A stretch of 64,000 bases of DNA from positions 4,368,153-4,432,152 of the forward strand of contig OZ242326.1 of assembly GCA_965208325.1 (NCBI GenBank). The letters run 5' to 3'. Both the position numbers and the translations under genes were made by a program. Positions within the stretch are counted from its first letter, which is position 1. Each line of letters begins with the position of its first letter. Under the pieces are notes generated by a model. That model did not search any database. It was given only the letters and a program-made list of their open reading frames with translations, and was not told the DNA's origin. Positions 555 to 54,472 of the stretch are shown here, piece after piece. The DNA comes from Candidatus Poribacteria bacterium. Lineage in GTDB: Bacteria; Poribacteria; WGA-4E; PCPOR2b.

Positions 555-2759
555 CTACTTCAAAATCACCATCTGCCTTAACGACGTATAATCACCCGCG
601 CGAAGTTTATAGTAATACGAGCCGCTTGGGACGCGTTCTCCGTTTTGATTGCGTCCATCCCAATACGCTGCGCGCACCTTGTCTCGGTAGATTCCCGATT
701 TTTGATGTCCAATTTCGAGTGTGCGGACGATATGACCGCTCTGGTTGTAGATGTTCAACGTCACGAGCGCATCGTCCCCCAACTGATACGGAATCCAAGT
801 TTCGGGGTTGAACGGATTCGGAAAATTTTGCAGCAGCGCTGTCCGTTTGATGTCTCCCAAGGTGGTAATGCGGTTTCCCAACGGTTCCACGCCAAATGGT
901 ATCGAAGAGGGAAGTTCCCACAGCAATACGGTGCCGTCCCCACTCGCGCTGGCGAGTGCGCGTCCGTCGGCACTGAACGCAAGGCTTCGGACTTCACCTG
1001 TATGCCCTGCGCGCACTTGCAGTTTTTTTCCCGTATGGATGTCCCACAAGCGAATGGTACAGTCCACACCGCTACTGGCGAGTATTCGCCCATTGGGGCT
1101 GAACGCAAGGCTTAAGACCCAATTCGTATGCCCTTTGAGCGTTCGCAGACGTATTCCGGTATCAGTGTCCCACAGACGGATGGTAAGGTCACCACTCCCG
1201 CTAGCGAGCGTTCTGCTATCGGGACTAAATGCTACGCTCGTAACCGAATTCGAATGTCCTTTCAGCGTTCGCAGGTGATTTCCGGTATGGGTGTCCCACA
1301 GACGCACCGTAGTGTCGCGGCTGCCGCTAGCAATCGTGCCACCGTCTGGGTTAAACGCAACAACTTCAACCTCGCTATTATGCCCCATGAAGGTCAGCAG
1401 CAGTTTTCCGGTATCGGTGTCCCGCAGCCGCACTGTACCGTCTCGTCTCCCGCTAGCAATTGTTCGCCCATCCGGACCGACCGCAACGCAACTGAACCCT
1501 ATCCCTTGCCCGTCGTGGGTTCGCAGGCGTCTTCCGGTATCGGTGTGCCACAGACTTATGGTATCGTGTGCACTTCCACTTGCGATAGTGCGCCCATCGG
1601 GACTGAATCCAATGCTAAATACGCTTGATGAATGCCCCTTCAGCGTTCGCAGGTGTTTTCCCGTATCGGCATCCCGCAGTCGGATTGTATGGGTTTCACC
1701 GCTGTACGCGATGATGCTGCTATCGGGACTAAACACAACGCTATAGGCCCCTAACGTATATCCTTTGAAGGTTCGGCGGTGATTTCCGGTATTGGCGTCC
1801 CACAGACGGATTGTAGTGTCGTCGCTCCCACTTGCGATGGTGCCGCCATCAGGACTGAACGCTACGGTATCAACATCATCCTTATGACCTATGAGCGTTC
1901 GGCGGTGTTTTCCGGTATTGGCATTCCATAGACGGATTGTGTCGTCCCGGCTCCCACTAGCAATGGTGCGACCATCTGGACTGAACGCAACACTATAGAC
2001 GGCAGATTCATGTCCCGTAAGCGTTTGGCGGTGTTTTCCGGTATCGGCGTCCCACAGGCGAATAGTCTTGTCCCAACTCCCGCTTGCAATTGTACGTCCA
2101 TCGGGGCTGTACACAACCTTAACGATGCCGTCTTCATGCCCCTTGAGCGTTTGCAGAAGTTTTCCAGTATCGACGTCCAACAGTCGAATAGAGTTGTCCC
2201 CAATCGCACTAGCGATGGTGCGGCCATCTGGACTGAACGCAACACTAGAATGCAAACCCCCACGCAAACCATCCCTGAATATATGCAGGAGTCCTCCGGT
2301 GCGGGCGTTCCACAGACGGATGCTGCCCAAACCCGTACTAGCGATGGTACGGCCATCTGGACTGAACGCAATGCTAGAGATCCAATTGCTATGGTTGAGC
2401 GTTCGAAAGGGTTTTCCCGTGTCGGTGTCCCATAACCGAATAGTATAGTCCCAACTCCCGCTAGCAATTGTGCGGCCATCCGGACTGAACGCAACGCATT
2501 TGACATAGTATGAATGCCCGTTGATTAGGGCGACCTCTTGATAGGTCTCCGTATCGTAAAGCCAAATTCCGATGCTACTGGCAACAGCAAGTCGAGTGCC
2601 GTCAGGCGAATACTGAAGTTCACTTATTTCGCCTTTACCGAAGCGTGCTTTAGCGTCCTCGGGACGACCCCATTGCGGAGAGTCTTGGGCAAAGCTGGGC
2701 GGTAGATATAGGGAGGTTACTAACAGTAAGCTAAGCTCGAAAACAATCGCCTTTTTCAT
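555..2759 (-). CDS. Secreted WD40-repeat protein with a C-terminal T9SS/FlgD-Ig-like sorting domain
   Basis: 734-aa ORF starting at a true ATG, with signal peptide MKKAIVFELSLLLVTSLYLPPSFA. It has more than a dozen units of the type GH...V.SVAFSPDGRTIASGS.D.TIRLWD. The last ~95 aa begin LLQNFPNPFNPETWIPY, typical of Por/T9SS-type C-terminal domains. Confidence 0.9.
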   Translation of the reverse strand: MKKAIVFELSLLLVTSLYLPPSFAQDSPQWGRPEDAKARFGKGEISELQYSPDGTRLAVASSIGIWLYDTETYQEVALINGHSYYVKCVAFSPDGRTIASGSWDYTIRLWDTDTGKPFRTLNHSNWISSIAFSPDGRTIASTGLGSIRLWNARTGGLLHIFRDGLRGGLHSSVAFSPDGRTIASAIGDNSIRLLDVDTGKLLQTLKGHEDGIVKVVYSPDGRTIASGSWDKTIRLWDADTGKHRQTLTGHESAVYSVAFSPDGRTIASGSRDDTIRLWNANTGKHRRTLIGHKDDVDTVAFSPDGGTIASGSDDTTIRLWDANTGNHRRTFKGYTLGAYSVVFSPDSSIIAYSGETHTIRLRDADTGKHLRTLKGHSSSVFSIGFSPDGRTIASGSAHDTISLWHTDTGRRLRTHDGQGIGFSCVAVGPDGRTIASGRRDGTVRLRDTDTGKLLLTFMGHNSEVEVVAFNPDGGTIASGSRDTTVRLWDTHTGNHLRTLKGHSNSVTSVAFSPDSRTLASGSGDLTIRLWDTDTGIRLRTLKGHTNWVLSLAFSPNGRILASSGVDCTIRLWDIHTGKKLQVRAGHTGEVRSLAFSADGRALASASGDGTVLLWELPSSIPFGVEPLGNRITTLGDIKRTALLQNFPNPFNPETWIPYQLGDDALVTLNIYNQSGHIVRTLEIGHQKSGIYRDKVRAAYWDGRNQNGERVPSGSYYYKLRAGDYTSLRQMVILK

Positions 2760-23162: not shown

Positions 23163-23882
23163 CCTAATTGAAAAATAGGTGACAAAGCCATTCTTGGGCG
23201 TTTGAGTTGTTATAACCGGTGGAACTTCTATTGTGCGGGATTTACTATTGCCTTCGCTATTCGCTCAGTTGATTCTATTCGGTAGCTTGATTTCACCTAA
23301 TACCTTACGCCAGCGTTGGGCGGGGCAAGATGCCCCGCCTAGAAGGCGCGGTGGTGGACGCGGGGCAAGATGCCCCGCCTACAAGGCGTGGTGGTGCACG
23401 TGGGGCAAGATGCCCCGCCTACAAGGCGTGGTGGTGCACGTGGGGCAAGATGCCCCGCCTACAAGGCGTGGTAGTGGACGCGGGGCAAGATGCCCCGCCT
23501 ACAAGGCGTGGTAGTGGACGCGGGGCAAGATGCCCGCCTACAAGGCGTGGTAGTGGACGCGGGGCAAGATGCCCCGCCTACAAGGCGTGGTGGTGGACGA
23601 GGGGCAAGGTGCCCCGCCTACAAGGCGCGGTGGTGGACGCGGGGCAAGATGCCCCGCCTACAAGTCGTGGTGGTGGACGCGGGGCAAGATGCCCCGCCTA
23701 GAAGGCGCGGTGGTGGACGCGGGGCAAGATGCCCCGCCTACAGGGCGTGGTGGTGGACGCGGGGCAAGGAAGATCTCTATCGCACTCCTTATTCAGTCGC
23801 TTGATTCCCGGCTACGGAGGGTAGTGGGGTACTTTGCACCTGACGCCCGTTTGGGGCTGTATAAAATGAACTTTCAAACAGG
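23163..23882 (+). mobile_element. MITE-like element, copy 2, carrying an expanded 40-bp tandem repeat
   Basis: Ends are CCTAATTGAA (23163) and TTCAAACAGG (23873). The left arm is homologous to 16718..16860. The right arm (GAAGATCTCTATCGCACTCCTTATTCAGTCGCTTGATT ... CTGTATAAAATGAACTTTCAAACAGG) is homologous to 44103..44376. Confidence 0.5.
23319..23768. repeat. 40-bp tandem repeat, 11 full copies plus one partial, each with a 9-bp-stem GC hairpin
   Basis: GGGGCAAG starts at 23322, 23362, 23402, 23442, 23482, 23522, 23561, 23601, 23641, 23681 and 23721, with a partial copy at 23761. The unit is GGGGCAAGATGCCCCGCCTACAAGGCGTGGTGGTGGACGC, and the hairpin is GGCGGGGCA-AGA-TGCCCCGCC. There are no unique spacers. 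Confidence 0.95.
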
Positions 23883-25494: not shown

Positions 25495-26928
<1,434 letters not shown>

Positions 26929-27110
26929 CTATATTGCGAATTTTTTCAGTAAATTAGGGAATTCAAAATGTACGCCGGATTTTATCTGGAAAATAATTTC
27001 CTGTTGGTCTGCATTGGCGAAGATGCATTATACAGCGAATCTAAAATGTTGCATGAGTTGAGGTACGGCTCCCAAACGCTCGGCTTGTGAAGCCGCACCA
27101 ATCTCAACGG

Positions 27111-27917
27111 CTACTCCTCTGCGTAGTCCAATCGCTGCGCGTACAGAAGTTGCGACGACCGGCTTGTGCGGTTCGGGAGTTCAATACTAACAGCCAGTGC
27201 CGCTTCGGTTTCCATGTACCTATTGGCGTCTGCGATGCTATCGAACTCAAACTCAACATACCGGTGCGGCGTTGCGCCGTGAATATTGTCGTATGAGGCA
27301 ATCCGCTTGACCTCTTCAGGTTCCTGCAGACTTGGTGCCACAGTCGCAATCCAATCCAGATACGCGTCTTTTCCGCCAAGCGGGTAGTCCACCAAATAAA
27401 CCAGTTTAACCGTCCGCGTGGGGTTTTCGTCCTTAGTATATTCCGATGAGCGTTGCGCGAACACATGCGTACTCACTTGGCTGCTGCGATTTGGGAGATC
27501 CCGAAACACCGCAGCCACATCGGGTCGGCGTAGATATTTTGCCGCATCCGATAAATTATCAAATTCAAACTCAACCAGCCGATGCGGATTTTCCCCGCGA
27601 ACATTGTCGTAAGATGCCACCCGGTTAAGTTCTTCGGGTGCCAGCAATGTCGGAGCGACTTCCGCTATCCAAGCGAGATAGGCGGCTTTTCCGCCGACCG
27701 GATAGTCGACCAACCAGACTACCTTCACCGGTAAAGTTTCCAACTCAACCATGTCGGAGTCCATAGGCGGCATGATGTCAATCGGAGGCGTCGTGTCGGG
27801 CTCGTCATCCTCCGGCGTCATCACATCCATCATCATATCTTGGGACAGATCGCAACCGATTAAAGCTACCGCTGTCAAGATAGCCACAACTAACATGCGC
27901 CTTAGTTGAAATGTCAT
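27111..27917 (-). CDS. Lipoprotein with two tandem ~100-aa repeats (possible ferredoxin-like ABM/Dabb-type fold)
   Basis: Start re-set to the ATG at 27917 (MTFQLRRMLVVAILTAVALIGC, lipobox LIGC), with AAGGAGG 7 nt upstream. There is an internal duplication: VKVVWLVDYPVGGKAAYLAWIAEVAPTLLAPEELNRVASYDNVRGENPHRLVEFEFD versus VKLVYLVDYPLGGKDAYLDWIATVAPSLQEPEEVKRIASYDNIHGATPHRYVEFEFD. The fold assignment is a guess. Confidence 0.6.
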   Translation of the reverse strand: MTFQLRRMLVVAILTAVALIGCDLSQDMMMDVMTPEDDEPDTTPPIDIMPPMDSDMVELETLPVKVVWLVDYPVGGKAAYLAWIAEVAPTLLAPEELNRVASYDNVRGENPHRLVEFEFDNLSDAAKYLRRPDVAAVFRDLPNRSSQVSTHVFAQRSSEYTKDENPTRTVKLVYLVDYPLGGKDAYLDWIATVAPSLQEPEEVKRIASYDNIHGATPHRYVEFEFDSIADANRYMETEAALAVSIELPNRTSRSSQLLYAQRLDYAEE

Positions 27918-28075
27918 CAGTTTGCCTCCTTTGGTGTAATAAATCATGATTAGTTAAGTTTAAACCATCCGCTCACATCAGTTCTGAAAACCGAATTTCC
28001 CGTTGCATCCAGGTTCTGTTTGCTGACTTTGAAAGGCATAATTTCACCTTCCAAAGCACCGTGAAATACTGGCGT

Positions 28076-28474
28076 TTACTCGTCGAAATGGTAGATTATT
28101 TGGTCGAAGCGGTGGCAGGCAAATGAGAACACGAAAATTAACGGCTCGCCGCCGGTGCACCGGACGGCATGTTTCGCGTTCGACGGAATAAAGACCGCCG
28201 AACCCGGTTCTATCTCCGATTCGTGATTCTCAATTGTCATATGGCCCGTGCCGCTGACGACGTAATACGTCTCCTCGGGCTCGTGGTGGTGAAGGGGAAG
28301 CCGCGTACCGGTTGGGAAATCCGCTATGCCTGTAACCAGCCCGCTGCTCGGTCCTTTTTCGCCGGTAACCAGAAGTTTCCAGCGAATCTGGCTTTTGGCG
28401 GCAATGACGGGATCGGCCCAACCCTCCCAAGCGAGTTCTGCTTGATTGATGATTATGGGTTTCTGACCGCTCAT
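28076..28474 (-). CDS. Cupin-domain protein
   Basis: Cupin motifs LPLHHHEPEETYYVVSGTG and GSAVFIPSNAKHAV. Start set to the ATG at 28474 (MSGQKP...). The ORF-track start at 28483 is a GTG. Confidence 0.75.
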   Translation of the reverse strand: MSGQKPIIINQAELAWEGWADPVIAAKSQIRWKLLVTGEKGPSSGLVTGIADFPTGTRLPLHHHEPEETYYVVSGTGHMTIENHESEIEPGSAVFIPSNAKHAVRCTGGEPLIFVFSFACHRFDQIIYHFDE

Positions 28475-28521
28475 AACTTCCACGTTTTTTCGGTATTGAG
28501 AAAGGACACCGCATCAGGAAT

Positions 28522-29388
28522 TTAACCCTCAAGTGCCGCTGCGCCGCTCACAATCTCCGAAATCTCCGTCGTAATCTGCGTCTGGCGTGCCCGGTTCCGC
28601 TGTAAGACCAAATCGTCAATGAGTTCCTTGGCGTTTCGTGTGGCATTCTCCATCGCCGTCATCCGCGCCGCTTGCTCGGCAGCGTTGGAGTCCAAAAGCA
28701 CCTTCCACATCTGCATATTAAGATGTTTCGCCAATACCGACTGAAATATCGCATCTTGTTCGGGCTCATAGAGATAATCTAGGAACAGGTCGTCGCCGGT
28801 CGGCACTTCCGGGGTAAGCGGCAGCAACTGCTCGACCAAGACCGTCTGCAGAATGGCAGATTTGAAATCGTTGTAGATGACCTCCACTTTATCGACCGCT
28901 TTGTCTCTGTAAAGAGGCTCAAACTCTGCCACTATGGCGACTGCTGACTCGAATGCAAGTTGCCGAAAAATGTTCACATATTCGGCGATGATATTATAAT
29001 TGCGCCGTGCGAAATGGTCGCGTGTGCGCCTGCCGACGCAGATGACCGAGACCTCCGAGCCCTGCGCTTCATAGTAAGCCCTCCGCTGCGTTGTTGTTCG
29101 AATGACATTGCTGTTAAAGCTGCCGCACAACCCGCGGTCCGCGGACACGGAGATGAGGCAAACCCGCTTCAGTTTGCGTGACTCGAGCAGGGGATGGGTA
29201 GGATTCTCAATCTGCGAAATAAGATGTCCCAAAATGGTGTTGAATTTTTCCGCGAACGGGCGCGTCGCGAGGATGTTTTCTTGTGCGCGCCGCAGCCTCG
29301 CCGCGGCGACCACTCGCATCGCATCCGTCACCTGCGCAATATTTTCGATACTTGCGATTCGGCGCCTAATTTCACGTAGTGTTGACAT
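28522..29388 (-). CDS. atpG: F1 ATP synthase subunit gamma
   Basis: 288 aa: MSTLREIRRRIASIENIAQVTDAMRVVAAARLRRAQ ... ITTEISEIVSGAAAL, with the typical gamma N- and C-terminal helices. Confidence 0.95.
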   Translation of the reverse strand: MSTLREIRRRIASIENIAQVTDAMRVVAAARLRRAQENILATRPFAEKFNTILGHLISQIENPTHPLLESRKLKRVCLISVSADRGLCGSFNSNVIRTTTQRRAYYEAQGSEVSVICVGRRTRDHFARRNYNIIAEYVNIFRQLAFESAVAIVAEFEPLYRDKAVDKVEVIYNDFKSAILQTVLVEQLLPLTPEVPTGDDLFLDYLYEPEQDAIFQSVLAKHLNMQMWKVLLDSNAAEQAARMTAMENATRNAKELIDDLVLQRNRARQTQITTEISEIVSGAAALEG

Positions 29389-29406
29389 GGGGGAAAGTTA
29401 GAAGAA

Positions 29407-29504
29407 TAATGAGTAAAGCGTAATGCGTAATGCGTAATGCGTAATGAGTAATGAGTAATGAGTAATGCGTAATGAGTAATACGTAATGCGTAATGCGTAA
29501 TGCG
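29407..29504. repeat. Heptanucleotide microsatellite (TAATGCG/TAATGAG/TAATACG), 14 units
   Basis: Read directly: TAATGAG TAAAGCG (TAATGCG)x3 (TAATGAG)x3 TAATGCG TAATGAG TAATACG (TAATGCG)x3. It lies between the atpG start and the 4HB gene stop. Confidence 0.95.
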
Positions 29505-29517
29505 TGATTAAGAAGGA

Positions 29518-29976
29518 TTAGTCGTTTAGGGGTGTTTCGGTGTCGTCGATATTGTAGGGTTCAGATTCTTCTTTTAAATTAGATTTTCTCTGATTTGAAA
29601 GCATCACGAGCAATAATCGGATAATTTCGGTCATCAATTCTAAGCGGTGATCGATAATAGATTCATTCAGAATGAAGCGGGCTTTGAAATACCAATCTCG
29701 GCACTCTCGAGCCGATCCGAGCGCATATTCGTAAAACCGGGCGCGGTCTCTATCGCTGCTTCGGCTGAATCCTTCGGCGATATTTGCGCTGATTGAACCG
29801 AGTGATCTGCAAAGCTGATCGGATAAAGAAACAGCGCGTCTGTCTTTAGCCAGCGCTGTGATGTCGGCCCAGCCGATATTCGCGGCGTACAGCGCCAACC
29901 GGTAGACCTTTACCCTCCATAGTGCATCGCCGGTAATGCTTTCAGGTACCGTCCGCTGCCACTCCTCGAACTTCAT
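29518..29976 (-). CDS. Four-helix-bundle protein of the 23S rRNA intervening-sequence / S23-like family (Avd-related)
   Basis: 152 aa. The region LSDQLCRSLGSISANIAEGFSRSSDRDRARFYEYALGSARECRDWY matches the family hallmark (..S...NIAEG..R.....F...A.GS..E). It is inserted between atpA and atpG on the same strand. Confidence 0.8.
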   Translation of the reverse strand: MKFEEWQRTVPESITGDALWRVKVYRLALYAANIGWADITALAKDRRAVSLSDQLCRSLGSISANIAEGFSRSSDRDRARFYEYALGSARECRDWYFKARFILNESIIDHRLELMTEIIRLLLVMLSNQRKSNLKEESEPYNIDDTETPLND

Positions 29977-30002
29977 GGCTTTCGCCCTTTGCGCCTTAAT
30001 GT

Positions 30003-30044
30003 ATATGAGTAATGCGTAATACGTAATGCGTAACTAGTAATTCA
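30003..30044. repeat. Short heptanucleotide microsatellite (same family)
   Basis: ATATGAG TAATGCG TAATACG TAATGCG TAACTAG TAATTCA, lying between the intact 4HB gene and the remnant copy. Confidence 0.8.
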
Positions 30045-30120
30045 ACGCTCATTTCCAAAGCCTTACTAATAGCCTTTAATCGCCTCATGCAACTACCAGA
30101 ATGCAACGCCCTTTTATATG

Positions 30121-30224
30121 CCAATCTCGGCACTCTCGAGCCAATCCTAGCGCATATTCGAATTCCAAAGCGCATCGCCGGTAATACGCTCGGGCACAGT
30201 ATTCTGCCACTCCCCGAACTTCAT
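30121..30224 (-). pseudogene. Decayed second copy of the four-helix-bundle gene
   Basis: 30121..30160 matches 29692..29731, and 30171..30237 matches 29927..29993 (this segment includes the start codon and upstream sequence) of the intact gene. About 185 nt are missing between the two segments and the 3' part is absent. There is no intact ORF on the minus strand. Confidence 0.55.
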
Positions 30225-30242
30225 GGCTTTCGCCCTTGCTTC

Positions 30243-30326
30243 TTACGCATTACGTATTACGTATTACGTATTTTTCCTAACGAGTAACGAGTAATACGTA
30301 ATACGTAATACGTAATACGTAATACG
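30243..30326. repeat. Heptanucleotide microsatellite with an inverted segment (long hairpin potential)
   Basis: TTACGCA (TTACGTA)x3 at 30243..30270 is the inverse of (TAACGAG)x2 (TAATACG)x5 at 30278..30326. It starts 4 nt after the atpA stop codon. Confidence 0.9.
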
Positions 30327-30330
30327 CAAC

Positions 30331-31857
30331 TCATAGCTCATTACTAAATTCACCTTTAAAACTCTTTACAGCCTCATGCAGTTTGTCAATCAATTCATCA
30401 CTGAGTTGTCCCGACTCTGCAATCTCCTTGAGGATGTCCGCGTGATTTCTCTCCATATATGCCAAGAATTCGGATTCAAACCGCGCCACCAAATTTGTTT
30501 CAATGTCGTCCAGATACCCGTTCGATCCGCAGAAAATAGAGGCAATCTGTTTCTCGACAGGCATTGGCTCATATTGAGGTTGTTTCAGCAATTCAACCAA
30601 CCGCTCACCACGCCGAAGCTGGCTTTGCGTTGAAGCGTCGAGGTCGGAACCGAACTGCGCGAAGGCGGCAACTTCGCGGAAACTCGCCAGATCAAGTTTC
30701 AGCGTCCCCGCAACTTCGTCCGATTTCATGGCTTTGGTCTGCGCATCGCCGCCGACGCGAGACACCGAGGTGCCTACATCTATTGCCGGACGGACGCCTT
30801 GATTGAAGAGTTCGGAAGTCAGGTAAATCTGTCCGTCGGTAATCGAAATCACATTGGTCGGGATGTAGGTTGTGAGATCGCCTTCGAAAATTTCAATAAT
30901 TGGCAATGAGGTCAACGAACCCCCGCCCAAGTCGTCGCTGAGTTTTGCGGCGCGTTCCAACAGCCGTGAGTGGAGATAGAATACGTCGCCCGGATATGCT
31001 TCGCGCCCCGGCGGGCGGCGTGAGAGCAGCGACATCTGGCGGTATGCCCACGCATGTTTGGTCAAGTCGTCGTAAATTACCAGTGCGTGCTGCCCCTTGT
31101 CGCGGAAATATTCACCCATCGAGGTGCCCGTGTAGGGCGCAAGATATTGGAGCGGGGACGGTTCGCTCGCCGGCGCGGAAACGACAATGGTGTAATCCAT
31201 CGCGCCGTGTTCTTCTAGGGTATTCACGACCTGCGCGACGGTCGAACCCTTCTGTCCGACGGCCACATAGATGCAAAACACGCCGGTATTTTTTTGATTG
31301 ATGATAGTATCAATCGGGATAGCCGTCTTGCCCGTTTGACGGTCGCCGATAATTAGCTCGCGCTGCCCTCGTCCGATGGGCGTCATGCTGTCAATCGCCT
31401 TTAAACCTGTATAAAGCGGTTCGTTCACGGGCTGGCGTTGGACGATTCCCAGCCCCTTCCGCTCAACGGGGAGGGTCTGCTCGGTCTTAATTTCTCCTTT
31501 TCCGTCAATCGGTTGTCCGAGCGCGTTCACGGCGCGCCCAAGCAGCGCCTCGCCGACGGGCACTTCAAGCAGCCTGTTCGTGCGCTTGGCGATATCGCCC
31601 TCGTGGATTAGCTTATCCTCGCCGAAGAGAACGCAGCCGACGTTGTCCTCTTCGAGGTTGAACGCCATCCCGAACACCTCGTTCGGGAATTCAACCATCT
31701 CGCTCGCCATAACGTTGGCAAGCCCGTGCACGCGGGCAATACCGTCGCCGACATCCAACACCGTTCCGGAGTCGTAAACGTCGACCTGCTGGCTGTATTG
31801 CAGCAGTTGTTGCTTTAATATGTTTGAAACCTCATCGGGTCTAACTTCTCTTGCCAT
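30331..31857 (-). CDS. atpA: F1 ATP synthase subunit alpha
   Basis: 508 aa with Walker [11 protein letters not shown], plus [12 protein letters not shown] and YDDLTKHA motifs. Confidence 0.97.
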
Positions 31858-36673: not shown

Positions 36674-36957
36674 GTTAACTGAGTCGCCTCATTGCCGCTT
36701 ACAAAAGTCAATGTCATAACCTTCGGCGGCTTCGCATGGAAGATGGGCTCGCCGTAAACCGATTGAATCTTTGACAAGCTGGCTTCCGAAAGAGAAATGT
36801 ATCAAAAACGCAGTAGAGTTTGTGAAATTTTTCACAAACTCAAGCCAAAAAAAAATGTATTACGCGCACTTTCAGCACGCAATCACCTATTGTCTCACAT
36901 TTCTGGGAGCGTGTCAAGTTTTTTTTCGGAGGGGATTGTGAAAAAAGGGAGTGTGGA

Positions 36958-37107
36958 TTATTTTTCGGCGGACGATTTTTCGACGGATTTACGGCGCGCC
37001 CGCGCTTTTCGGGCGAGCTGCCGTTTCATTGCATCGAGCTGGTTTTTGCGGTTCAGTTTCCGGCTGATATCTTCCGCGATAGTTTTTGGGGCGCGTTTCG
37101 TTTTCAT
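36958..37107 (-). CDS. Hypothetical small, highly basic protein (49 aa)
   Basis: ATG at 37107 with GGAG 6 nt upstream: MKTKRAPKTIAEDISRKLNRKNQLDAMKRQLARKARARRKSVEKSSAEK. I recognise no family. Confidence 0.3.
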   Translation of the reverse strand: MKTKRAPKTIAEDISRKLNRKNQLDAMKRQLARKARARRKSVEKSSAEK

Positions 37108-37346
37108 TCTGGTCTCCGTGCAAGATAAATTGAGGCAACGTTTAGGAGTGCACAAATCAAAACGACGACAGGATTGTGTGCGGTTTCACACATTTCAACA
37201 CGTGTTGTGGAAGCGCGGCGAAATTCATCCACTATTGACGGGTGAGGTGGTTTTTTGGTATACTAAAAAATCATAACGATGGTTGGGGTTAAGGATTTAT
37301 CTGAACTGTGATTCGTGTGATTAAATGCTGGGCTGTGATAACGAGA

Positions 37347-39343
37347 GTTCTTGTAGGTTGGGTTACGCTAGATTGTAGGGAATTCATGATTCATTAAAAC
37401 ACGAAACGCCTGCGTTGTAGCTAACTGTTTCTTAAAACACCACTTAACCCAACCTACAAGAACTGGTGTATTGATTGCGTTCGAGAATTGTCAGTGCGCG
37501 GTGAAACCCAACGCCTTTCAAATCTCGAGAGTGCAGAAAAGCGTTGGGTTTCGCTGCGCATAATTTGGAATTGGGCGTGTTTTGTGTAATGAACGGTCAA
37601 CGCAATTGGAACGGTTTTGGGATAATCCGCTCTACCCAACCTACAAAGACTAGCGTCTTCGGTGCGTGATGAATTCAAATTCTTTACACCTGTCGCCCCG
37701 CTGGGGCTTCGGCATTAGTGAGTTGGTGCGCATTTTGTAGGTTGGGTAGAGCGAGATTATTGAAACATGCGGTTATTAGGCATAGGGCTGGTGTGTTGAT
37801 TGTGTTCAAGAATTGTCAGGCGTAGCGATAGCCAACGCATTTTAAATATCGGGAGTGCAGAAAAGCGTTGGGTTTCGCTGCGCATAATTTGGAATTGGGC
37901 GTGTTTTGTGTACTGAGCTGTCAACGCAATTGGAACGGTTTTGGGATTATCCGCTCTACCCAACCTACAAAGACTAGCGTCTTCGGTGCGTGATGAATTC
38001 AAATTCTTTATACCTGTCGCCCCGCTGGGGCTTTCAATGATTGGAGAATTGTCGTTTCTATACACCTGTCGCCCCTCCGGGGCTTCGGCATTAGTGAGTT
38101 GGTGCGCATTTTGTAGGTTGGGTTGAGCGGGATTGTTGAAACATGCGGTTATTAGGCATAAGGCTGGTGTGTTGATTGTGTTCAAGAATTGTCAGTGCGC
38201 GGTGAAACCCAACGCCTTTTAAATCTCGAGAGGTCAGAAAAGCGTTGGGTTTCGCTACAGGTAATTTGGAATAGGCAATGTTTTGTGTACTGAGCTGTCA
38301 ACGCAATTGGAACGGTTTTGGGATAATCCGCTCTACCCAACCTACAAAGACTAGCGTCTTCGGTGCGTGATAAATTCAAATTCTTTATACCTGTCGCCCG
38401 TCCGGGGCTTCGACATTAGTGAGTTGGTGCGCATTTTGTAGGTTGGGTAGAGCGAGATTATTGAAACATGCGGTTATTAGGCATAGGGCTGGTGTGTTGA
38501 TTGCAATTAAGAATTGGTAGTGCGCGGAGAAACCCAACGCCTTTTAAATCTCGAGAGTGCAGAAAAGCGTTGGGTTTCGCTGCGCACAATTTGGAATTGG
38601 CAGCGTTTTGGGTTGTGAACCGTCAACGGAATTGGAACGGTTTTGGGATTATCCGCTCTACCCAACCTACAAAGACTAGCGTCTTCGGTGCGTGATGAAT
38701 TCAAATTCTTTATACCTGTCGCCCCGCTGGGGCTTCGGCATTAGTGAGTTGGTGCGCATTTTGTAGGTTGGGTAGAGCGGGATTGTTGAAACATGCGGTT
38801 ATTAGGCATAAGGCTGGTGTGTTGATTGTGTTCAAGAATTGTTAGTGCGCGGAGAAACCCAACGCCTTTTAAATCTCGAGAGTGCAGAAAAGCGTTGGGT
38901 TTCGCTGCGCACAATTTGGAATTGGCAGCGTTTTGGGTTGTGAACCGTCAACGGAATTGGAACGGTTTTGGGATTATCCGCTCTACCCAACCTACAAAGA
39001 CTAGCGTCTTCGGTGCGTGATGAATTCAAATTCTTTACACCTGTCGCCCCGCTGGGGCTTCGGCATTAGTGAGTTGGTGCGCATTTTGTAGGTTGGGTAG
39101 AGCGAGATTATTGAAACATGTGGTTATTAGGCATAAGGCTGGTGTGTTGATTGCAATTAAGAATTGGTAGTGCGCGGTGAAACCCAACGCCTTTTAAATC
39201 TCGAGAGTGCAGAAAAGCGTTGGGTTTCGCTACAGGTAATTTGGAATAGGCAATGTTTTGTGTACTGAGCTGTCAACGCAATTGGAACGGTTTTGGTATA
39301 ATCCGCTCTACCCAACCTACAAAGATTACAAAGTCTACAAAGA
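37347..39343 (+). repeat. Tandem array of a ~325-bp nested-palindrome unit (1 partial and 5 full units plus a terminal half-site)
   Basis: CTCTACCCAACCTACAAAGA occurs at 37630, 37954, 38331, 38656, 38981 and 39306, with spacings of 324, 377, 325, 325 and 325. A leading inverted pair, GTTCTTGTAGGTTGGGTTA (37347) ... TAACCCAACCTACAAGAAC (37445), precedes the array. No credible ORF is present. Confidence 0.95.
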
Positions 39344-39415
39344 CATGAAAATAGAAACGCAATGGAAATGCGGTAAAAATCTGTTTTGCCGAGTGCACAA
39401 GGAGGCGGGACGCCT

Positions 39416-41098
39416 ATGAACGCTGCGGTAATTGCGGTTGTTGTGTTGATTCTGTATTTTTTGGGGTACCGTTACTACTCGAAGTTTCTCTCCGAGAAGA
39501 TTTTTCGGCTTTCTGACGATGAACCGATGCCCTCGCATGAGCTCGAAGACGGCGTGGATTATGTTCCGACTAACAAACACGTCCTGTTTGGGCACCACTT
39601 CTCGTCGATTGCCGGCGCCGCGCCGATTATCGGACCCGCGATTGCCGTGTTTTGGGGCTGGCTGCCTGCGATTCTCTGGGTGGTGCTCGGAACAATTTTT
39701 ATGGGTGCGGTGCACGATTTCAGTGCGCTCGTGGTCTCCGCCCGGCGGAAGGGGCGGTCCGTCGGAGACCTCGCCGGGTTGCTGGTGAATTCCCGCGCAA
39801 GAACGCTGTTTCTGATAATCGTCTACTTCTTGATTTTTTTCGTCCTGGCGGTCTTCGCATACGCCATCGCCAGCCTGTTCGTCAAATATCCGACAAGTGT
39901 GCTGCCCATTAATTTCGAGATTGCCGTGGCGCTCGCTATCGGTTTTCTGCTCTATCGAAAAGGGATTCCGCTGCTCTGGCCGTCCATAATTGCGCTGCTC
40001 ATGCTTTATGTCATGGTCTGGGTGGGGACACGCGTGCCGATACCGATGCCCGAAATCATGGGCAGCCAAAAGGTGACGTGGATTATCTTGCTGCTGGGCT
40101 ACTCATTCGTTGCGTCGGTATTGCCGGTGTGGTTGCTGCTGCAGCCGCGCGACTATATCAACTCCCACCAACTCTTCGTCGGGTTGGCGGTGATGTTCTT
40201 GGGGCTGATGGTGGCGCATCCGACGATGCAGGCGCCGGCAATCAACCCCAACCCCGACGGCGCTGTTCCGATGTTTCCGTTCATCTTTGTAACCATCGCG
40301 TGCGGCGCAATCAGCGGGTTTCACGGGCTGGTTTCGAGCGGCACCACATCGAAGCAATTGGATAAAATGACGCACGCGCGGCACGTCGGATACGGCGGAA
40401 TGTTGGGCGAGGGAACGTTGGCGATGTTCGCCACGCTCGCGGTGGCTGCGGGGTTGAGCCGCAGCGAGTGGCTCACGCACTACCACGATTGGCATGCGGC
40501 GAGCAGCGGCGGCATCACCAATTTCGTGCTCGGCGCTTCCACGTTCTTGCAGGCGCTGAAGATTCCCGAACTTTTGGCGAACACGTTTATTAGCGTCATC
40601 GTCATCAGTTTCGCCGCGACGTCGCTCGATACCGGCACGCGAATTCAGCGCCTGATCGTCGGCGAACTCGGCGCGGCGTATAAGATAAAGGGGTTCCAAA
40701 ACCGCTACATCGGCGCGGCGCTGGCGGTTGTGCCCAGCCTGCTGCTGGCGCTGCTCGTTGAAGCGCCGAACCTCGGACCCGGTTCAGGCGGTTTCCTGCT
40801 CTGGCCGCTGTTCGGTGCGAGCAACCAGCTCGTCGGCGGGTTGACGCTGCTGGTGGCAACGATTTTCCTCTGGAAATCGGGACGCCCCATCATCTATACG
40901 TTGATACCGATGTTCTTCCTGATATGCATGACGACGGGCGCCATGATACTGAACTTTAAGTCGTTCTGGCATAACCCGCTGCTGCTCGTCCTCTCCGCGA
41001 TAATTCTGGCGCTCGAGGTCTGGTTGATTTTGGAGGCGGTTGCCGTGTTCAAGAGCCGGCGCGGCGGCGCAAGCGGCGTCCCGCAAGAGGCGGATTAG
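39416..41098 (+). CDS. cstA: Carbon starvation protein A (peptide/pyruvate transporter family)
   Basis: ATG at 39416 with AAGGAGG 10 nt upstream. Sequence MNAAVIAVVVLILYFLGYRYYSKFL...FGHHFSSIAGAAPIIGPAIAVFWGWLPA is a typical CstA N-terminus. About 560 aa, polytopic. Confidence 0.92.
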   Translation: MNAAVIAVVVLILYFLGYRYYSKFLSEKIFRLSDDEPMPSHELEDGVDYVPTNKHVLFGHHFSSIAGAAPIIGPAIAVFWGWLPAILWVVLGTIFMGAVHDFSALVVSARRKGRSVGDLAGLLVNSRARTLFLIIVYFLIFFVLAVFAYAIASLFVKYPTSVLPINFEIAVALAIGFLLYRKGIPLLWPSIIALLMLYVMVWVGTRVPIPMPEIMGSQKVTWIILLLGYSFVASVLPVWLLLQPRDYINSHQLFVGLAVMFLGLMVAHPTMQAPAINPNPDGAVPMFPFIFVTIACGAISGFHGLVSSGTTSKQLDKMTHARHVGYGGMLGEGTLAMFATLAVAAGLSRSEWLTHYHDWHAASSGGITNFVLGASTFLQALKIPELLANTFISVIVISFAATSLDTGTRIQRLIVGELGAAYKIKGFQNRYIGAALAVVPSLLLALLVEAPNLGPGSGGFLLWPLFGASNQLVGGLTLLVATIFLWKSGRPIIYTLIPMFFLICMTTGAMILNFKSFWHNPLLLVLSAIILALEVWLILEAVAVFKSRRGGASGVPQEAD

Positions 41099-43834: not shown

Positions 43835-44376
43835 GCGGGGCAAGATGCCCCGCCTACAAGGCGTGGTGGGGTACGGGGTGGCAAGATGCCCGCCTACAGG
43901 GCGTGGTGGTACACGCGGGGCAAGATGCCCCGCCTACAAGGCGTGGTGGGGTACGGGGTGGCAAGATGCCCCGCCTACGGAGGGTGGGGTGATGATTTAC
44001 GCGGGGCAAGATGCCCCGCCTACAAGGCATGGTGGCACGCTAGGGTTGGGGGAGGCAAGATGCCCGCCTAGGGAGGGTGGGGTGATAGTTTACACGGGGC
44101 AATGAAGATCTCTAGCGCACTCGTTATTCAGTCGCTTGATTTCAGCCTACTGAGGGTAGTGGGATACTTAATGCCTGCCGCCCCTCTGGGGCTATTGATG
44201 TAGGGTGAATTGATGTTGCTATATACCTATCGCCCCTCTGGGGCTTTCGATTTAGGTGAAATAATGATTTTATAATCCTGAGAATCTCAATTGTACTCGC
44301 AATTCACCCGCTCGATCCCGCGCTGGCGCTTTGGCTTATGACAACTGGTGCTGTAAAATATGAACTTTCAAACAGG
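43835..44376 (+). mobile_element. MITE-like element, copy 3 (left arm missing, about 6 degenerate hairpin repeats, extra hairpin modules)
   Basis: GGGGCAAGATGCCCCGCC hairpins run from 43837 to about 44097 with about 40/80-bp periodicity. The right arm (GAAGATCTCTAGCGCACTCGTTATTCAGTCGCTTGATT ... AAATATGAACTTTCAAACAGG, ending at 44376) is homologous to copy 2. Confidence 0.5.
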
Positions 44377-52069: not shown

Positions 52070-52182
52070 AAAAGCGTTGGGTTTGCTGTGCCGGGCAGAT
52101 TTCGAAACATAATATAGCCTTAGGACGCATTATGATAAATCACGCATGTTGCACGAACCCGCTTAACCCAACCTACAAGAAC
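52070..52182 (+). repeat. Solo copy of the half-unit of the 37-39 kb repeat family
   Basis: It begins AAAGCGTTGGGTTTGC and ends CGCTTAACCCAACCTACAAGAAC, with about 85 nt of unrelated sequence between. These are the same end motifs and spacing as in each array unit. Confidence 0.7.
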
Positions 52183-53539: not shown

Positions 53540-54043
53540 TGGAATTCCTCCCTATTAGGTGCGTTACCGCGCACCGGCTTCGTGAGTGTCGTCGAACTCC
53601 GCATGTCACGTGCAGTTTTTTTACTTATTGTCAAATGGCTTCTCAATAGTCAACGGCGTTTCTAACTCGCTGTAAACCAAAGCCACCATCAACGTTAGGT
53701 ATTTCATGCCGCACGACGTACTATTGTACGAGATTTTGACGCCATCGTCAATTGCGTTAACCGCAACGCCGACAACCCTCTGGGGATGTAGGATGACGAG
53801 CGTTGACTGAATGTGACACGCAGGAAAAAACTTCATCTTCGAGCGGGGGGCAATTCCCAGTTGCCATGGGGTTATGGAATTATTGTGGAAAGATGCCTAA
53901 TCTTGCATGTTTGCCGATGCCGCTTAACCGAACCGACAAGAACCATTTGTTAGCTTAATCGCATGATTTTGGTTTGATGACAGCGTTTAATATTTGTGCG
54001 GGAGTAAAAAAATCTAACTCTTTTTGGTGGTGTAGAGGTTTCA

Positions 54044-54156
54044 AAAGCGTTGGGTTTCGCTCCGTCCATTTTGCTAAGCAGCGATGATTGATGATTGAGT
54101 TGATTGTTGAGATGATACGTTTTTGGAAAATCCTGCTCTACCCAACCTACAAGAAC
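54044..54156 (+). repeat. Solo copy of the half-unit of the 37-39 kb repeat family
   Basis: AAAGCGTTGGGTTTCGC ... about 80 nt ... ATCCTGCTCTACCCAACCTACAAGAAC. A further degenerate end motif, TTAACCGAACCGACAAGAAC, lies at 53924..53943. Confidence 0.7.
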
Positions 54157-54214: not shown

Positions 54215-54472
54215 AACAGAAAATCACACTAGCCGACTTAGCAGCTTCCTTTTCCAAGTGCGATCCAAAACACATCCCCAAAATTGAAAGCGTTATATTC
54301 ACATGAACCTAGATGATGTCCCCAAAAGTTGATGTACCGTTATCAATGTTATAATCGAAAGGCGTTCACCTCATTCGTTCCTTCCCCCGGAGGACGGCGC
54401 GAATCGTGTTAGGGTAAAAACGCATTTAGTAGATAAACCTTGACAATCACATTCAAATTGATAGGACGAAAG

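What the first reader, a model, noticed from the sequence alone, without database searches (positions are those of the whole stretch)
37347..39343. Six-unit tandem array of a ~325-bp ORF-free nested-palindrome repeat filling the cstA upstream region
- **Periodicity:** the motif CTCTACCCAACCTACAAAGA recurs at 37630, 37954, 38331, 38656, 38981 and 39306, with spacings of 324, 377, 325, 325 and 325 bp. The units look well above 90% identical by eye.
- **Unit structure:** each unit is built of nested inverted repeats.
  - 14-bp arms ACCCAACCTACAAA ... TTTGTAGGTTGGGT enclose about 90 nt that contain the GC hairpin GCCCCGCTGGGGC.
  - An inner hairpin GCGCGGTGAAACCCAACGC-N25-GCGTTGGGTTTCGCTGCGC.
  - Across unit junctions, ~26-bp arms TTTGTAGGTTGGGTAGAGCGAGATTAT ... 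ATAATCCGCTCTACCCAACCTACAAA.
- **Odd unit:** the 377-bp unit carries an extra ~52 bp with a second copy of the GC hairpin.
- **Mosaic variation:** the segment after the inner hairpin exists in three alleles. GCGCATAATTTGGAATTGGGCG occurs in occurrences 1-2, GCTACAGGTAATTTGGAATAGGCAA in occurrences 3 and 6, and GCGCACAATTTGGAATTGGCAGCG in occurrences 4-5. This points to recombination or gene conversion rather than simple decay.
- **Context:** the array ends about 70 bp before the cstA ATG, so a cstA transcript starting upstream of the array would carry about 2 kb of hairpins.
- **Interpretation:** the closest analogy I know is a REPIN/BIME-type cluster mobilised by a RAYT transposase. A 325-bp composite unit in tandem is not typical of those, and no RAYT or transposase gene is in the window. 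A tandemly encoded structured RNA is the main alternative.
Basis: partly seen in the sequence, partly recalled or inferred. Interest (0 to 1): 0.75.

Follow-up and report, generated by a model that had tools for sequence, protein, structure and literature searches.

The report
Tandem array of oversized REP doublets
The 2-kb repeat in front of cstA in this sponge-symbiont (Poribacteria) genome is a tandem pile-up of an unusually large version of the REP palindromes that RAYT transposases spread through bacterial genomes, a known kind of selfish DNA, here wedged between the gene and its conserved promoter.

Summary
Five complete ~325-bp units (one of 377 bp) plus one partial unit lie at 37466-39325, 91-92% alike and mosaic between units.

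Each unit is an 84-92-nt spacer with a GC hairpin plus an inverted doublet of two ~110-nt "long REPs". Their end boxes are GTAGGTTGGGT / ACCCAAC / GTTGGGT / ACCCAACCTAC.

The same boxes are dispersed and extragenic in Candidatus Poribacteria genomes. They directly flank a REP-associated tyrosine transposase (RAYT) gene in three Poribacteria genomes, a Calothrix genome and, as a variant, an Anaerolineae genome. Tandem REP arrays lie beside the Poribacterial RAYT genes.

A tandem structured RNA is not supported:
- No Rfam hit.
- No consensus fold or covariation inside the units.
- No per-unit promoter or terminator.
- Seven orthologous cstA loci lack the array.

Unusual points:
- The box spacing is 82-86 nt in Poribacteria against 0-29 nt in other phyla, and is held constant although the interiors have diverged almost to randomness.
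- The array separates cstA from a conserved promoter by about 2.15 kb, against about 135 nt in REP-free relatives. cstA is still under purifying selection.

No RAYT gene is in the window. Verdict: new variant of a known kind.

The parts
37235..37264 (+). Conserved sigma-70-type promoter (TTGACG, 18 nt, TATACT, with TG), the presumed ancestral cstA promoter, now about 2.15 kb from the ATG
   Evidence: It is the only promoter-like site in 36900-39500. The core GCTATTGAC..TTTGGTATACT is conserved in six orthologous loci. In REP-free loci it lies 134-139 nt before the ATG.
37307..37340 (+). ~35-nt motif TGTGATTCGTGTGATTAAATGCTGGGCTGTGATAA that abuts REP doublets
   Evidence: The same motif flanks both sides of the solo B'-A doublet in L002 and precedes the doublet in L061.
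37346..37465 (+). Resident single long REP (type D) with GTAG at one end and CTAC at the other. It is what remains of the doublet present in the orthologous locus L061.
   Evidence: 20-nt perfect inverted arms with 79 nt between them (I11). It is 91% identical to L061:5890-5992. L061's left long REP is deleted between two GTTGGGTT boxes.
37466..37649 (+). Partial unit U1: a B' arm truncated at its outer end, the central hairpin (37495-37560), and a complete A-type long REP (box 3 at 37541, box 4 at 37634-37644)
   Evidence: Unit alignment and box coordinates.
37650..37973 (+). Unit U2 (324 bp): spacer S with GC hairpin 37694-37707, inverted long REP B' (box 1 at 37737), central hairpin, direct long REP A (box 4 at 37958-37968). 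Its box 2 is degenerate (AGCCAAC).
37974..38350 (+). Unit U3 (377 bp): as the other units, but the spacer carries a 52-bp duplication with a second GC hairpin (38018-38031 and 38070-38083)
   Evidence: The same 52-nt spacing of this mini-repeat recurs at 44179 and 44231.
38351..38675 (+). Unit U4 (325 bp): S + B' + central hairpin + A
38676..39000 (+). Unit U5 (325 bp): S 38676-38759, B' 38760-38871, central hairpin 38845-38912, A 38888-39000
   Evidence: As single-stranded DNA it folds into the outer 21-bp stem plus the central hairpin on both strands (z = -6.7 and -5.9).
39001..39325 (+). Unit U6 (325 bp), the last unit. It contains TGGTATAAT at 39294-39302.
   Evidence: The other units read GGGATAAT or GGGATTAT at this position.
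39294..39302 (+). Candidate new extended -10 element (TGGTATAAT) made by a G-to-T change in the last unit only, 113 nt before the cstA ATG. It resembles the native TTTTGGTATACT. Function is inferred, not shown.
   Evidence: Sequence comparison of the units. It was not reported by the hexamer scan because the -35 region is poor.
39326..39344 (+). Right junction: TTACAAAGT CTACAAAGAC, reiterating the CTACAAAGAC tail of the resident REP
   Evidence: L061 reads ...ACCCAACCTACAAAGAC|ATGAAAATAG. The window reads ...ACCCAACCTACAAAGA TTACAAAGT CTACAAAGAC|ATGAAAATAG.
39416..41098 (+). cstA (carbon starvation protein A family transporter), 560 aa, intact
   Evidence: Pfam CstA E = 1e-145. Homologues cover 100% of it. 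Lineage-specific changes are 4 nonsynonymous and 68 synonymous.
52070..52182 (+). Solo long REP of the same family (box 3 at 52074, box 4 at 52166-52176, spacing 83 nt), in a convergent intergenic region
54043..54156 (+). Solo long REP (box 3 at 54047, box 4 at 54140-54150, spacing 84 nt). A degenerate box 4 lies at about 53923-53945.

Best explanation
The array is a BIME/REPIN-type cluster: tandem copies of an inverted doublet of two REP elements of different sub-types (B' and A) plus a linker.

**Family.** The REPs belong to a family whose end boxes (GTAG + GTTGGGT ... ACCCAAC, and the mirror image) are the recognition hairpin of a RAYT (TnpA-REP), an HUH/Y1 single-strand DNA nuclease encoded elsewhere in the genome. 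In Poribacteria the two arms of each REP hairpin are 82-86 nt apart, against about 10-20 nt in other phyla. Each REP is therefore about 110 nt and each doublet about 240 bp.

**What is shown.**
- The anatomy of the unit.
- Genome-wide extragenic dispersal in Poribacteria.
- Physical linkage of the same boxes to RAYT genes in relatives.
- Absence of the array at seven orthologous cstA loci.
- Mosaic unit relationships.

**What is inferred.**
- A REP doublet first landed in the cstA leader, next to or within a resident REP.
- A second doublet plus linker then amplified by unequal recombination or replication slippage between direct repeats.
- Gene conversion between units followed.
- RAYT action on single-stranded DNA seeded the copies, but need not have built the array.

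**Consequence.** The array lies inside the cstA 5' leader and pushes the conserved promoter about 2.15 kb away. cstA is then either read through a G/U-rich, hairpin-rich leader, or is driven by a new extended -10 (TGGTATAAT) born in the last unit.
For: **Anatomy.**

**Dispersal.** The 21-mer with box 4 gave more than 101 stretches, including 25 separate 8-kb blocks of one Poribacteria chromosome, OZ242351.1. Only 14 of 150 boxes lie in open stretches of 150 codons or more, although such stretches make up 69% of the sequence. In the window the figure is 0 of 15.

**RAYT.**
- L037:2576-3118 and L044:4688-5230 score 201.6 and 195.2 bits against NCBIfam REP_Tyr_transpos (cut-off 80), hit Pfam Y1_Tnp, and match PDB 4er8 TnpA-REP at E = 3.9e-40.
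- In L044 the boxes lie 15-70 bp from both ends of the gene. In L108 they start 21 bp after the stop.

**Other arrays.** Periods of 263 and 319 bp in L044, 394-594 bp in L037, and 153 bp (at least 9 copies) in L108.

**Same system in other phyla.** The closest RAYT homologues outside Poribacteria (60-65% identity) are from cyanobacteria, Anaerolineae and Desulfobacterales, the phyla where the motif was found. The Calothrix RAYT is flanked by short-loop doublets with the same four boxes.

**Orthologous loci.** L061 (91% nt identity) has one doublet. L102, L110-L113 and L115 have none.

**Recombination.** Segment identities are discordant between units.

**Literature.**
- BIMEs are a REP plus an inverted REP with a linker, often as consecutive tandem copies (PMC8266576).
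- Ordered tandem REPIN clusters include their flanks and lie beside RAYT genes (PMC3116915).
Against: - No RAYT gene is in the 64-kb window, and the rest of this genome is not available.
- At about 110 nt per REP, the elements are outside the 20-50 nt that defines REPs (PMC8266576, PMC3733652). A 7-9-bp stem closing an ~84-nt loop is marginal, and single long REPs do not fold better than shuffles (z = 0.15 to -1.8). No RAYT has been shown to act on such a substrate.
- The two arms of a doublet are not complementary in their interiors. Both are G/T-rich on the same strand. The doublet is therefore not a simple REPIN hairpin.
- The left junction (a truncated B') is not a clean site-specific cut.
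- The tight 82-86-nt spacing is not explained by this model.
- The array was not found in any other assembly, so its copy number rests on one assembly.
Confidence: 0.82

Rival explanations
1. Tandemly encoded structured RNA, or a functional structured leader: each unit, or the whole 2-kb leader, is an RNA with a selected fold that regulates cstA or acts in trans.
For: - The array lies downstream of the conserved cstA promoter and on its sense strand.
- The sense strand is G/T-rich (GC skew about +0.2), which allows G-U pairs and would disfavour Rho loading.
- The unit folds far better than shuffles (z = -6.7).
- The interior length is constrained.
- Tandem small-RNA arrays exist in cyanobacteria (NsiR1; from my own knowledge, not checked here).
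Against: - Both strands fold about equally well (z = -6.7 and -5.9), as expected of DNA palindromes.
- No Rfam family reaches its gathering score, and only sub-threshold miRNA-hairpin noise appears at E up to 1.
- RNAalifold on 15 A-type and 25 B-type long REPs finds no internal consensus structure and no covariation. Only the invariant closing stem is found, and only in the A set.
- No promoter-like or terminator-like site lies within any unit.
- Seven orthologous cstA loci lack the array.
- The same elements occur in unrelated intergenic contexts in both orientations.
Confidence: 0.07
2. A MITE of a conventional (DDE) transposon: the ~240-bp doublet with 21-26-bp terminal inverted repeats is a non-autonomous element of an IS, and the array arose by repeated insertion.
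For: - Perfect 20-21-bp terminal inverted repeats about 198 nt apart.
- A size typical of MITEs.
- DDE transposase genes occur in some related loci, for example L103 and L106.
Against: - The termini are the GTAG-tagged boxes that flank RAYT genes.
- No short target-site duplication is seen at the doublets examined. L002 instead has a 37-nt direct repeat on both sides.
- Single REPs with one outer and one inner box are common.
- No DDE transposase was found bounded by these repeats.
Confidence: 0.04
3. Integron-type attC array without integrase (CALIN): ACCCAAC and GTTGGGT fit the attC R'' and R' consensus RYYYAAC / GTTRRRY.
For: The heptamers fit the consensus. The central hairpin and the hairpin across the linker have the attC-like order ACCCAAC...GTTGGGT (sequence).
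Against: - No integrase gene is in the window.
- No cassette ORFs. All 'cassettes' are copies of one another.
- The stems extend well beyond the heptamers.
- The boxes are linked to RAYT genes, not to intI.
- Copies are dispersed singly across the genome.
Confidence: 0.01
4. Assembly artefact: the true locus has one unit or a few units, and the assembler inflated a repeat.
For: - Only one assembly carries it.
- Exact look-ups of three neighbouring proteins, and two exact-match scans of JGI metagenome contigs with array-specific junctions, found nothing.
- The closest relative has no array.
Against: - Units differ by 1-15% in a segment-wise mosaic, and one has a 52-bp insertion. Artefactual expansion gives near-identical copies.
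- Comparable arrays occur in four other Poribacteria long contigs or complete chromosomes.
Confidence: 0.05

Closest known systems
E. coli BIMEs (REP plus inverted REP with linkers, often in consecutive tandem copies) and their REPtron with TnpA-REP/RAYT (PMC8266576; PDB 4ER8, PMC3479197)
   Same: - A GTAG-tagged palindrome.
- Two REP sub-types alternating in opposite orientation, with two alternating linkers (a 26-nt centre and an ~86-nt spacer), repeated in tandem.
- Extragenic and high in copy number.
- A homologous RAYT (44% identity in tblastn; E = 4e-40 to 4er8) flanked by its REPs in relatives.
   Different: - Each REP is about 110 nt instead of 20-50 nt, with 82-86 nt between the stem arms.
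- The unit is 325 bp and the array about 1.9 kb.
- It sits in a 5' leader between promoter and gene.
- Binding of IHF, gyrase or Pol I is unknown.
- That Y and Z types alternate in E. coli BIMEs is from my own knowledge.
Ordered tandem REPIN clusters of Pseudomonas fluorescens SBW25 (Bertels and Rainey 2011, PMC3116915)
   Same: - Tandem repeats of nearly identical REP doublets, including their flanking sequence.
- Such clusters lie beside RAYT genes.
- A second mechanism (duplication) is invoked for cluster formation.
   Different: - The largest SBW25 cluster has four REPINs in just over 700 bp. Here there are five and a half doublets in about 1.9 kb.
- SBW25 REPIN arms are complementary. Here the interiors of the two arms are not.
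Cyanobacterial GTAG-tagged REPs with large unstructured loops (GTAG-15 family of Di Nocera et al. 2013, PMC3733652)
   Same: The same four boxes and the same loop-flanking residues (GAGCG ... AGCGAAAC) occur in Nostocales, Okeania and Calothrix copies. A RAYT 60-65% identical to the Poribacterial one is present there. That paper reports loops of 9-15 nt without complementary bases.
   Different: - Spacing is 0-29 nt in 83 of 107 non-Poribacterial copies and never 80-89 nt.
- Equating these copies with 'GTAG-15' is my inference. The consensus is in a figure that I could not read.
IS200/IS605 elements and their derivatives (PATEs)
   Same: A Y1 HUH enzyme acting on single-stranded DNA hairpins at the element ends. 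The RAYT also weakly matches the IS200 models.
   Different: The RAYT scores far higher on the REP-specific model (202 against 27 bits). No tnpB is present. No defined left and right ends bracket the gene as a mobile unit.

Membership tests
REP (repetitive extragenic palindrome) | Palindrome preceded by a conserved tetranucleotide, usually GTAG | tested here: met
   GTAG + GTTGGGT ... ACCCAAC on the REP strand, invariant in every copy.
REP (repetitive extragenic palindrome) | Small size, 20-50 nt (PMC8266576) or 20-40 bp (PMC3733652) | tested here: not met
   About 102-115 nt per element. Box spacing is 82-86 nt in 84 of 86 long copies. Cyanobacterial relatives meet this feature.
REP (repetitive extragenic palindrome) | High copy number, mostly intergenic | tested here: met
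   More than 101 stretches in a truncated scan, including 25 blocks of one chromosome. 14 of 150 boxes lie in long open stretches, which make up 69% of the sequence. Tested on relatives and the window, not on this organism's whole genome.
REPtron / RAYT association | A tnpA-REP (RAYT) gene immediately flanked by the cognate REPs | tested here: met
   Met in relatives L037, L044, L108, L105 and L106. For the window's own genome it is not testable. No RAYT is in the window.
REPtron / RAYT association | The RAYT binds and cleaves the single-stranded REP | not testable with these tools
   Needs an in vitro cleavage and strand-transfer assay, as in PMC8266576.
REPIN | Two REPs in inverted orientation that together form a long hairpin | tested here: inconclusive
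   Inverted orientation is present, with an outer 21-bp stem and a central 25-bp stem (z = -6.7). The ~70-nt interiors of the two arms are not complementary, and both are G/T-rich on one strand.
BIME | A REP and an inverted REP separated by linkers, as consecutive tandem copies | tested here: met
   (S - B' - centre - A) x 5 plus a partial unit.
MITE | Terminal inverted repeats plus a target-site duplication, with a cognate autonomous IS | tested here: inconclusive
   Terminal inverted repeats are present. No target-site duplication was seen at L002, L061 or the window junctions. No cognate IS was found, but no systematic search was possible.
Integron attC array | intI nearby, attC sites (R''-L''...L'-R') separating different cassettes | tested here: not met
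   No integrase gene among the window ORFs scanned. All units are copies of one another and have no conserved ORF.
Tandem small-RNA gene array or known RNA family | A match to a curated RNA family, or a conserved fold with covariation, plus a promoter and terminator per unit | tested here: not met
   Rfam; no consensus fold, zero covariation; no promoter-like or terminator-like sites in the units.
CRISPR array | Short repeats separated by unique spacers | tested here: not met
   The whole 325-bp period is repeated. There are no unique spacers.

The most novel reading that the evidence does not exclude
Poribacterial 'long REPs' may be a distinct REP architecture. The distance between the two half-sites (82-86 nt, about 8 helical turns) would be measured and selected while the interior is free to vary. 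That would imply a RAYT or host factor that reads two boxes at a fixed distance, or an interior with a sequence-independent role.

At this locus the array may also have been accommodated by the host. It displaced the conserved cstA promoter by about 2 kb. A single G-to-T change in the promoter-proximal unit created TGGTATAAT, which mimics the native TTTTGGTATACT. REP arrays could therefore both disconnect and regenerate promoters.
Probability: 0.2. Interest if true: 0.6.

Novelty: new variant of a known kind. Interest (0 to 1): 0.38.

Why it matters
- It extends REP-RAYT systems to the candidate phylum Poribacteria (sponge symbionts). I found no paper that mentions them together.
- One RAYT clade and one set of recognition boxes can carry REPs about 30 nt long in cyanobacteria and about 110 nt long in Poribacteria. 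This bears on which parts of a REP the enzyme reads.
- The constant spacing with a free interior is a concrete, testable anomaly.
- The cstA locus is a natural series: 0 REPs, one doublet, or a 2-kb array between a conserved promoter and an intact gene. It could be used to measure what BIME-type arrays do to transcription.
- For annotation, such arrays should be masked as REP clusters and not called as genes or RNAs.

Tried and rejected
- **Integron attC idea.** It was prompted by RYYYAAC / GTTRRRY. Rejected: no integrase, no cassettes, and linkage to RAYT genes.
- **oriC idea.** It was prompted by the cumulative GC-skew minimum near 36 kb and the divergent gene orientation. There is no DnaA-box enrichment (10 matches against 10.6 expected, none in the array), no dnaA gene, and the array is absent in orthologues.
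- **Rfam.** Nothing at gathering threshold on the whole window. At E up to 1 on the array, only miRNA-precursor noise at 21-29 bits against cut-offs of 59-99.
- **Internal hairpin in A-type interiors.** AACCGT..ACGGTT looked compensatory by eye (window versus L009 and L094). It is not complementary in L042, and RNAalifold did not recover it.
- **Literature search by sequence string.** Only chance primer matches.
- **Exact-protein look-ups.** CstA, AtpB and the 49-aa ORF of the window are not on record, so the source assembly and independent assemblies could not be found.
- **Metagenome scans.** Two exact scans for array-specific junctions gave 0 hits.
- **Probe sequence.** Its hits were then verified independently.
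Full report
**1.

The 20-mer CTCTACCCAACCTACAAAGA occurs six times on the + strand (37630, 37954, 38331, 38656, 38981, 39306). Its inverse occurs five times between them. Dinucleotide shuffles give none. Tandem Repeats Finder reports period 377 (1.9 copies, 91%) and period 325 (3.9 copies, 92%).
- 20-21-nt perfect arms 86 nt apart, across a GC hairpin.
- The same arms 197-199 nt apart.
- A central hairpin with 25-nt arms.

An alignment of the units shows five complete units and one partial unit. The complete units are U2 37650-37973, U3 37974-38350 (with an extra 52 bp), U4 38351-38675, U5 38676-39000 and U6 39001-39325. The partial unit is U1 (37466-37649). A different single element precedes them at 37346-37465.

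The mosaic is real. The spacer groups U2 with U6 (100%). The left arm groups U3 with U5 and U4 with U6 (97%). The right arm groups U4 with U5 (100%), U3 with U6 (99%) and U1 with U2 (96%). Mechanical ORFs exist (40-142 aa) but differ from unit to unit.

**2. Anatomy.**

Each unit has three parts:
- S, an 84-92-nt spacer with the hairpin GCCCCGCTGGGGC.
- B', reading TTTGTAGGTTGGGTAGAGCG, about 75 nt, then GCGGTGAAACCCAACGC.
- A 26-nt centre followed by A, reading GCGTTGGGTTTCGCT, about 75 nt, then CCGCTCTACCCAACCTACAAAGAC.

There are thus four boxes per doublet:
- Box 1: GTAGGTTGGGT.
- Box 2: ACCCAAC.
- Box 3: GTTGGGT.
- Box 4: ACCCAACCTAC (coordinates).

Solo copies with boxes 3 and 4 lie at 52070-52182 and 54043-54156.

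**3. What the boxes are.**

Forty-four are from Candidatus Poribacteria, including 25 separate 8-kb blocks of chromosome OZ242351.1. Most of the rest are from cyanobacteria, with some from Anaerolineaceae and Thermodesulfobacteriota. The window's genes (WD40, TPR, ankyrin plus CotH, FG-GAP) fit Poribacteria.

In cyanobacteria the same four boxes form classical short doublets, for example GTAGGTTGGGTTGAcgttaggAAACCCAAC, about 20 nt, then GTTGGGTTgcgctgtcgcTTAACCCAACCTAC. This is a GTAG-tagged REP hairpin and its inverse.

The ORFs L037:2576-3118 and L044:4688-5230 are 180 aa and 81% identical to each other. They score 201.6 and 195.2 bits on NCBIfam REP_Tyr_transpos (cut-off 80), hit Pfam Y1_Tnp, and match PDB 4er8 (TnpA-REP) at E = 3.9e-40.

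In L044 the gene is bracketed by the boxes. A short palindrome, GTAGGTTGGGTtgatctctACCCAACCTAC, lies 15 bp from its 3' end. A long-REP doublet lies 67 bp from its start. Tandem doublet arrays with periods of 263 and 319 bp follow. L037 has 21 boxes around its RAYT gene and arrays with periods of 394-594 bp.

Homologues of this RAYT at 60-65% identity come from cyanobacteria, Anaerolineae and Desulfobacterales, the phyla where the motif was found. Their flanks were checked in three loci:
- The Calothrix gene is flanked by short-loop doublets with the same boxes.
- The Anaerolineae gene is flanked by a GTAGGTCGGGTT variant.
- Another Poribacterial gene (L108) is followed by a long-REP doublet and at least nine direct long REPs with a period of about 153 nt.

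This meets the defining REP-RAYT ('REPtron') association in relatives. The window itself has no RAYT, transposase or integrase gene.

**4. Fit to known organisation.**

[quoted passage not shown] The largest has four REPINs in just over 700 bp, and clusters lie beside each RAYT gene (PMC3116915). The window's (S-B'-centre-A)n has that design and is larger. B and A are distinct sub-types, comparable to the alternating REP classes of E. coli BIMEs (the latter from my own knowledge).

**5. What is unusual.**

The spacing between the inner and outer box falls as follows:
- 80-89 nt in 70 of 150 Poribacterial copies.
- 80-89 nt in 14 of 15 window copies.
- 80-89 nt in 0 of 107 copies from other phyla, where 83 are 0-29 nt.

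Among the long copies, 84 of 86 have a spacing of 82-86 nt. Yet the interiors (70.8 +/- 2.1 nt) have diverged almost to randomness. Ungapped identity has a median of 0.35 against 0.26 for shuffles. This suggests selection on length, for which I have no explanation.

Published REPs are 20-50 nt. The largest loops reported are 9-15 nt in cyanobacterial GTAG-15 and up to 27 bp in Bradyrhizobium (PMC3733652). No paper in the library links Poribacteria with RAYT or REPIN.

**6. Structure and the RNA alternative.**

A whole unit folds as single-stranded DNA into the outer 21-bp stem plus the central hairpin, on both strands (z = -6.7 and -5.9). Single long REPs and the spacer do not fold better than shuffles (z = 0.15 to -1.8). 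RNAalifold on 15 A-type and 25 B-type long REPs gives no internal consensus structure and no compensatory change. Only the invariant closing stem is recovered, and only in the A set. Rfam gives nothing at gathering score and only sub-threshold miRNA-hairpin noise at E up to 1. The units contain no promoter-like or terminator-like sites. A tandemly encoded structured RNA is therefore not supported.

**7. Comparative genomics of the locus.**

L061 (OZ242351.1) is the orthologous region at about 91% nt identity. Between the same flanks it has a single doublet (L061 5726-5996). The window keeps only that doublet's right-hand REP (37346-37465). The left one was lost by a deletion between two GTTGGGTT boxes. 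The window also carries about 1.87 kb of additional sequence between ACCCAACCTACAAGAAC and a reiterated CTACAAAGAC.

Six more orthologous loci with the same synteny (ATP synthase, CitMHS_2, 49-aa ORF, cstA) have no REP at all in this spacer: L102, L110, L111, L112, L113 and L115.

All share a conserved promoter, GCTATTGAC..TTTGGTATACT. In the window it is TTGACG, 18 nt, TATACT with TG, at 37235-37264. It is the only promoter-like site in 36900-39500. It lies 134-139 nt from the ATG in REP-free loci, 437 nt in L061 and 2152 nt in the window. The array is thus a lineage-specific gain inside the cstA leader, not a conserved regulatory element.

cstA is intact. In the window lineage it has 4 nonsynonymous and 68 synonymous changes, against 5 and 59 in the L061 lineage, with L110 and L115 as outgroups. 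So it has stayed under purifying selection.

In the last unit only, a G-to-T change gives TGGTATAAT (39294-39302), which resembles the native TTTTGGTATACT. Whether it acts as a promoter is inference.

**8. Mechanism.**

Shown:
- Family membership of the boxes.
- RAYT linkage in relatives.
- Dispersal of the copies.
- Lineage-specific presence of the array.
- Recombinant units.

Inferred:
- RAYT-dependent seeding of REP doublets on single-stranded DNA at or next to a resident REP.
- Amplification of a doublet plus linker by unequal recombination or slippage.
- Gene conversion between units.

The alternating b2,b1,b2,b1 pattern of left arms in U3-U6, with a2,a3,a3,a2 right arms, suggests duplication of a two-unit block followed by exchange. 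The left junction is a truncation rather than a precise cut, so the history included at least one illegitimate deletion.

**9. Limits.**

- The rest of this genome, reads and transcripts are not available.
- Exact look-ups and two metagenome scans found no second copy of the array.
- The divergence between units argues against an assembly artefact but does not prove the copy number.

**10. Verdict.**

This is a BIME/REPIN-type tandem cluster of a RAYT-associated REP family. It is a new variant by size and by its fixed spacing, in a phylum where such systems have not been described in the library I could search.

Noticed in passing
window 44173-44244 (two copies 52 nt apart), 23838-23857; also L088 7482-7506: The GC-hairpin module of the array spacer (ACCTRTCGCCCCNNNGGGGCT) is a small repeat family of its own. 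The two copies near 44.2 kb are 52 nt apart, the same as the 52-bp duplication in unit U3.
   Followed up: partly
window 44108-44140; L002 1160-1290; L044 5460-5510 and 5985-6020; many other Poribacteria loci: Another dispersed Poribacterial repeat, GAAGACTATCGCCYTCGCTATTCRCTCAGTTGATCG. It often sits between a GTTGGGTT box and ACCCAACCTAC as a short REP interior ('type C'), and is sometimes reiterated.
   Followed up: no
window 37307-37340; L002 398-432 and 676-712; L061 5686-5722: A ~35-nt motif, TGTGATTYGTGTGATTRAATGNTGGNCTGTGAT, abuts REP doublets. In L002 it flanks the doublet on both sides as a direct repeat. It may be a preferred target or part of the duplicated unit.
   Followed up: partly
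window 36989-37138 (-): A 49-aa lysine/arginine-rich ORF is called in the orthologous loci that include this stretch (L102, L110-L113, L115). It lies between CitMHS_2 and the cstA promoter and has no Pfam hit on record there. Function unknown.
   Followed up: no
L108 5564-6994: Next to a Poribacterial RAYT gene lies a long-REP doublet followed by at least nine direct (same-orientation) long REPs with a period of about 153 nt. This is a second kind of array, made of single REPs rather than doublets.
   Followed up: partly
L037 724-1025 (-): A second, weaker RAYT-like tblastn match (34-35% identity, in two frames), about 1.5 kb from the intact RAYT gene. It is probably a decayed paralogue. The overlapping 136-aa ORF has no Pfam hit.
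   Followed up: no
window 25495-31857 (-): The F-type ATP synthase operon is interrupted. A 278-aa ORF without Pfam hit (27111-27947) lies between the beta and gamma subunit genes. A gene of the '23S rRNA-intervening sequence protein' family (29518-29976) lies between the gamma subunit gene and the next large ORF, 30331-31857, which I take to be the alpha subunit gene from the synteny in L102.
   Followed up: no
window ~22-37 kb: The cumulative GC skew falls to a minimum near 35-36 kb and rises afterwards. This coincides with the switch from minus-strand to plus-strand genes at the array. There is no DnaA-box enrichment and no dnaA gene, so it may only reflect gene orientation.
   Followed up: partly
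window 54440-57166 (+): A 908-aa protein combines a CotH kinase domain with many ankyrin repeats, a eukaryote-like repeat protein typical of sponge symbionts. A solo long REP lies in its upstream region.
   Followed up: no
window 1078-2247; L002 1740-3294: 126-bp tandem periodicity inside WD40-repeat protein genes. These are coding repeats, unrelated to the REP array.
   Followed up: no
L066 7569-7797 (Calothrix parasitica), L082 4041-4689 (Okeania): Tandem arrays with periods of 93-116 nt in two cyanobacterial loci fetched by the REP motif. The L066 unit contains the motif. The L082 array starts at a motif match, but its consensus unit lacks an exact box. Array formation is therefore probably not peculiar to Poribacteria.
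   Followed up: no
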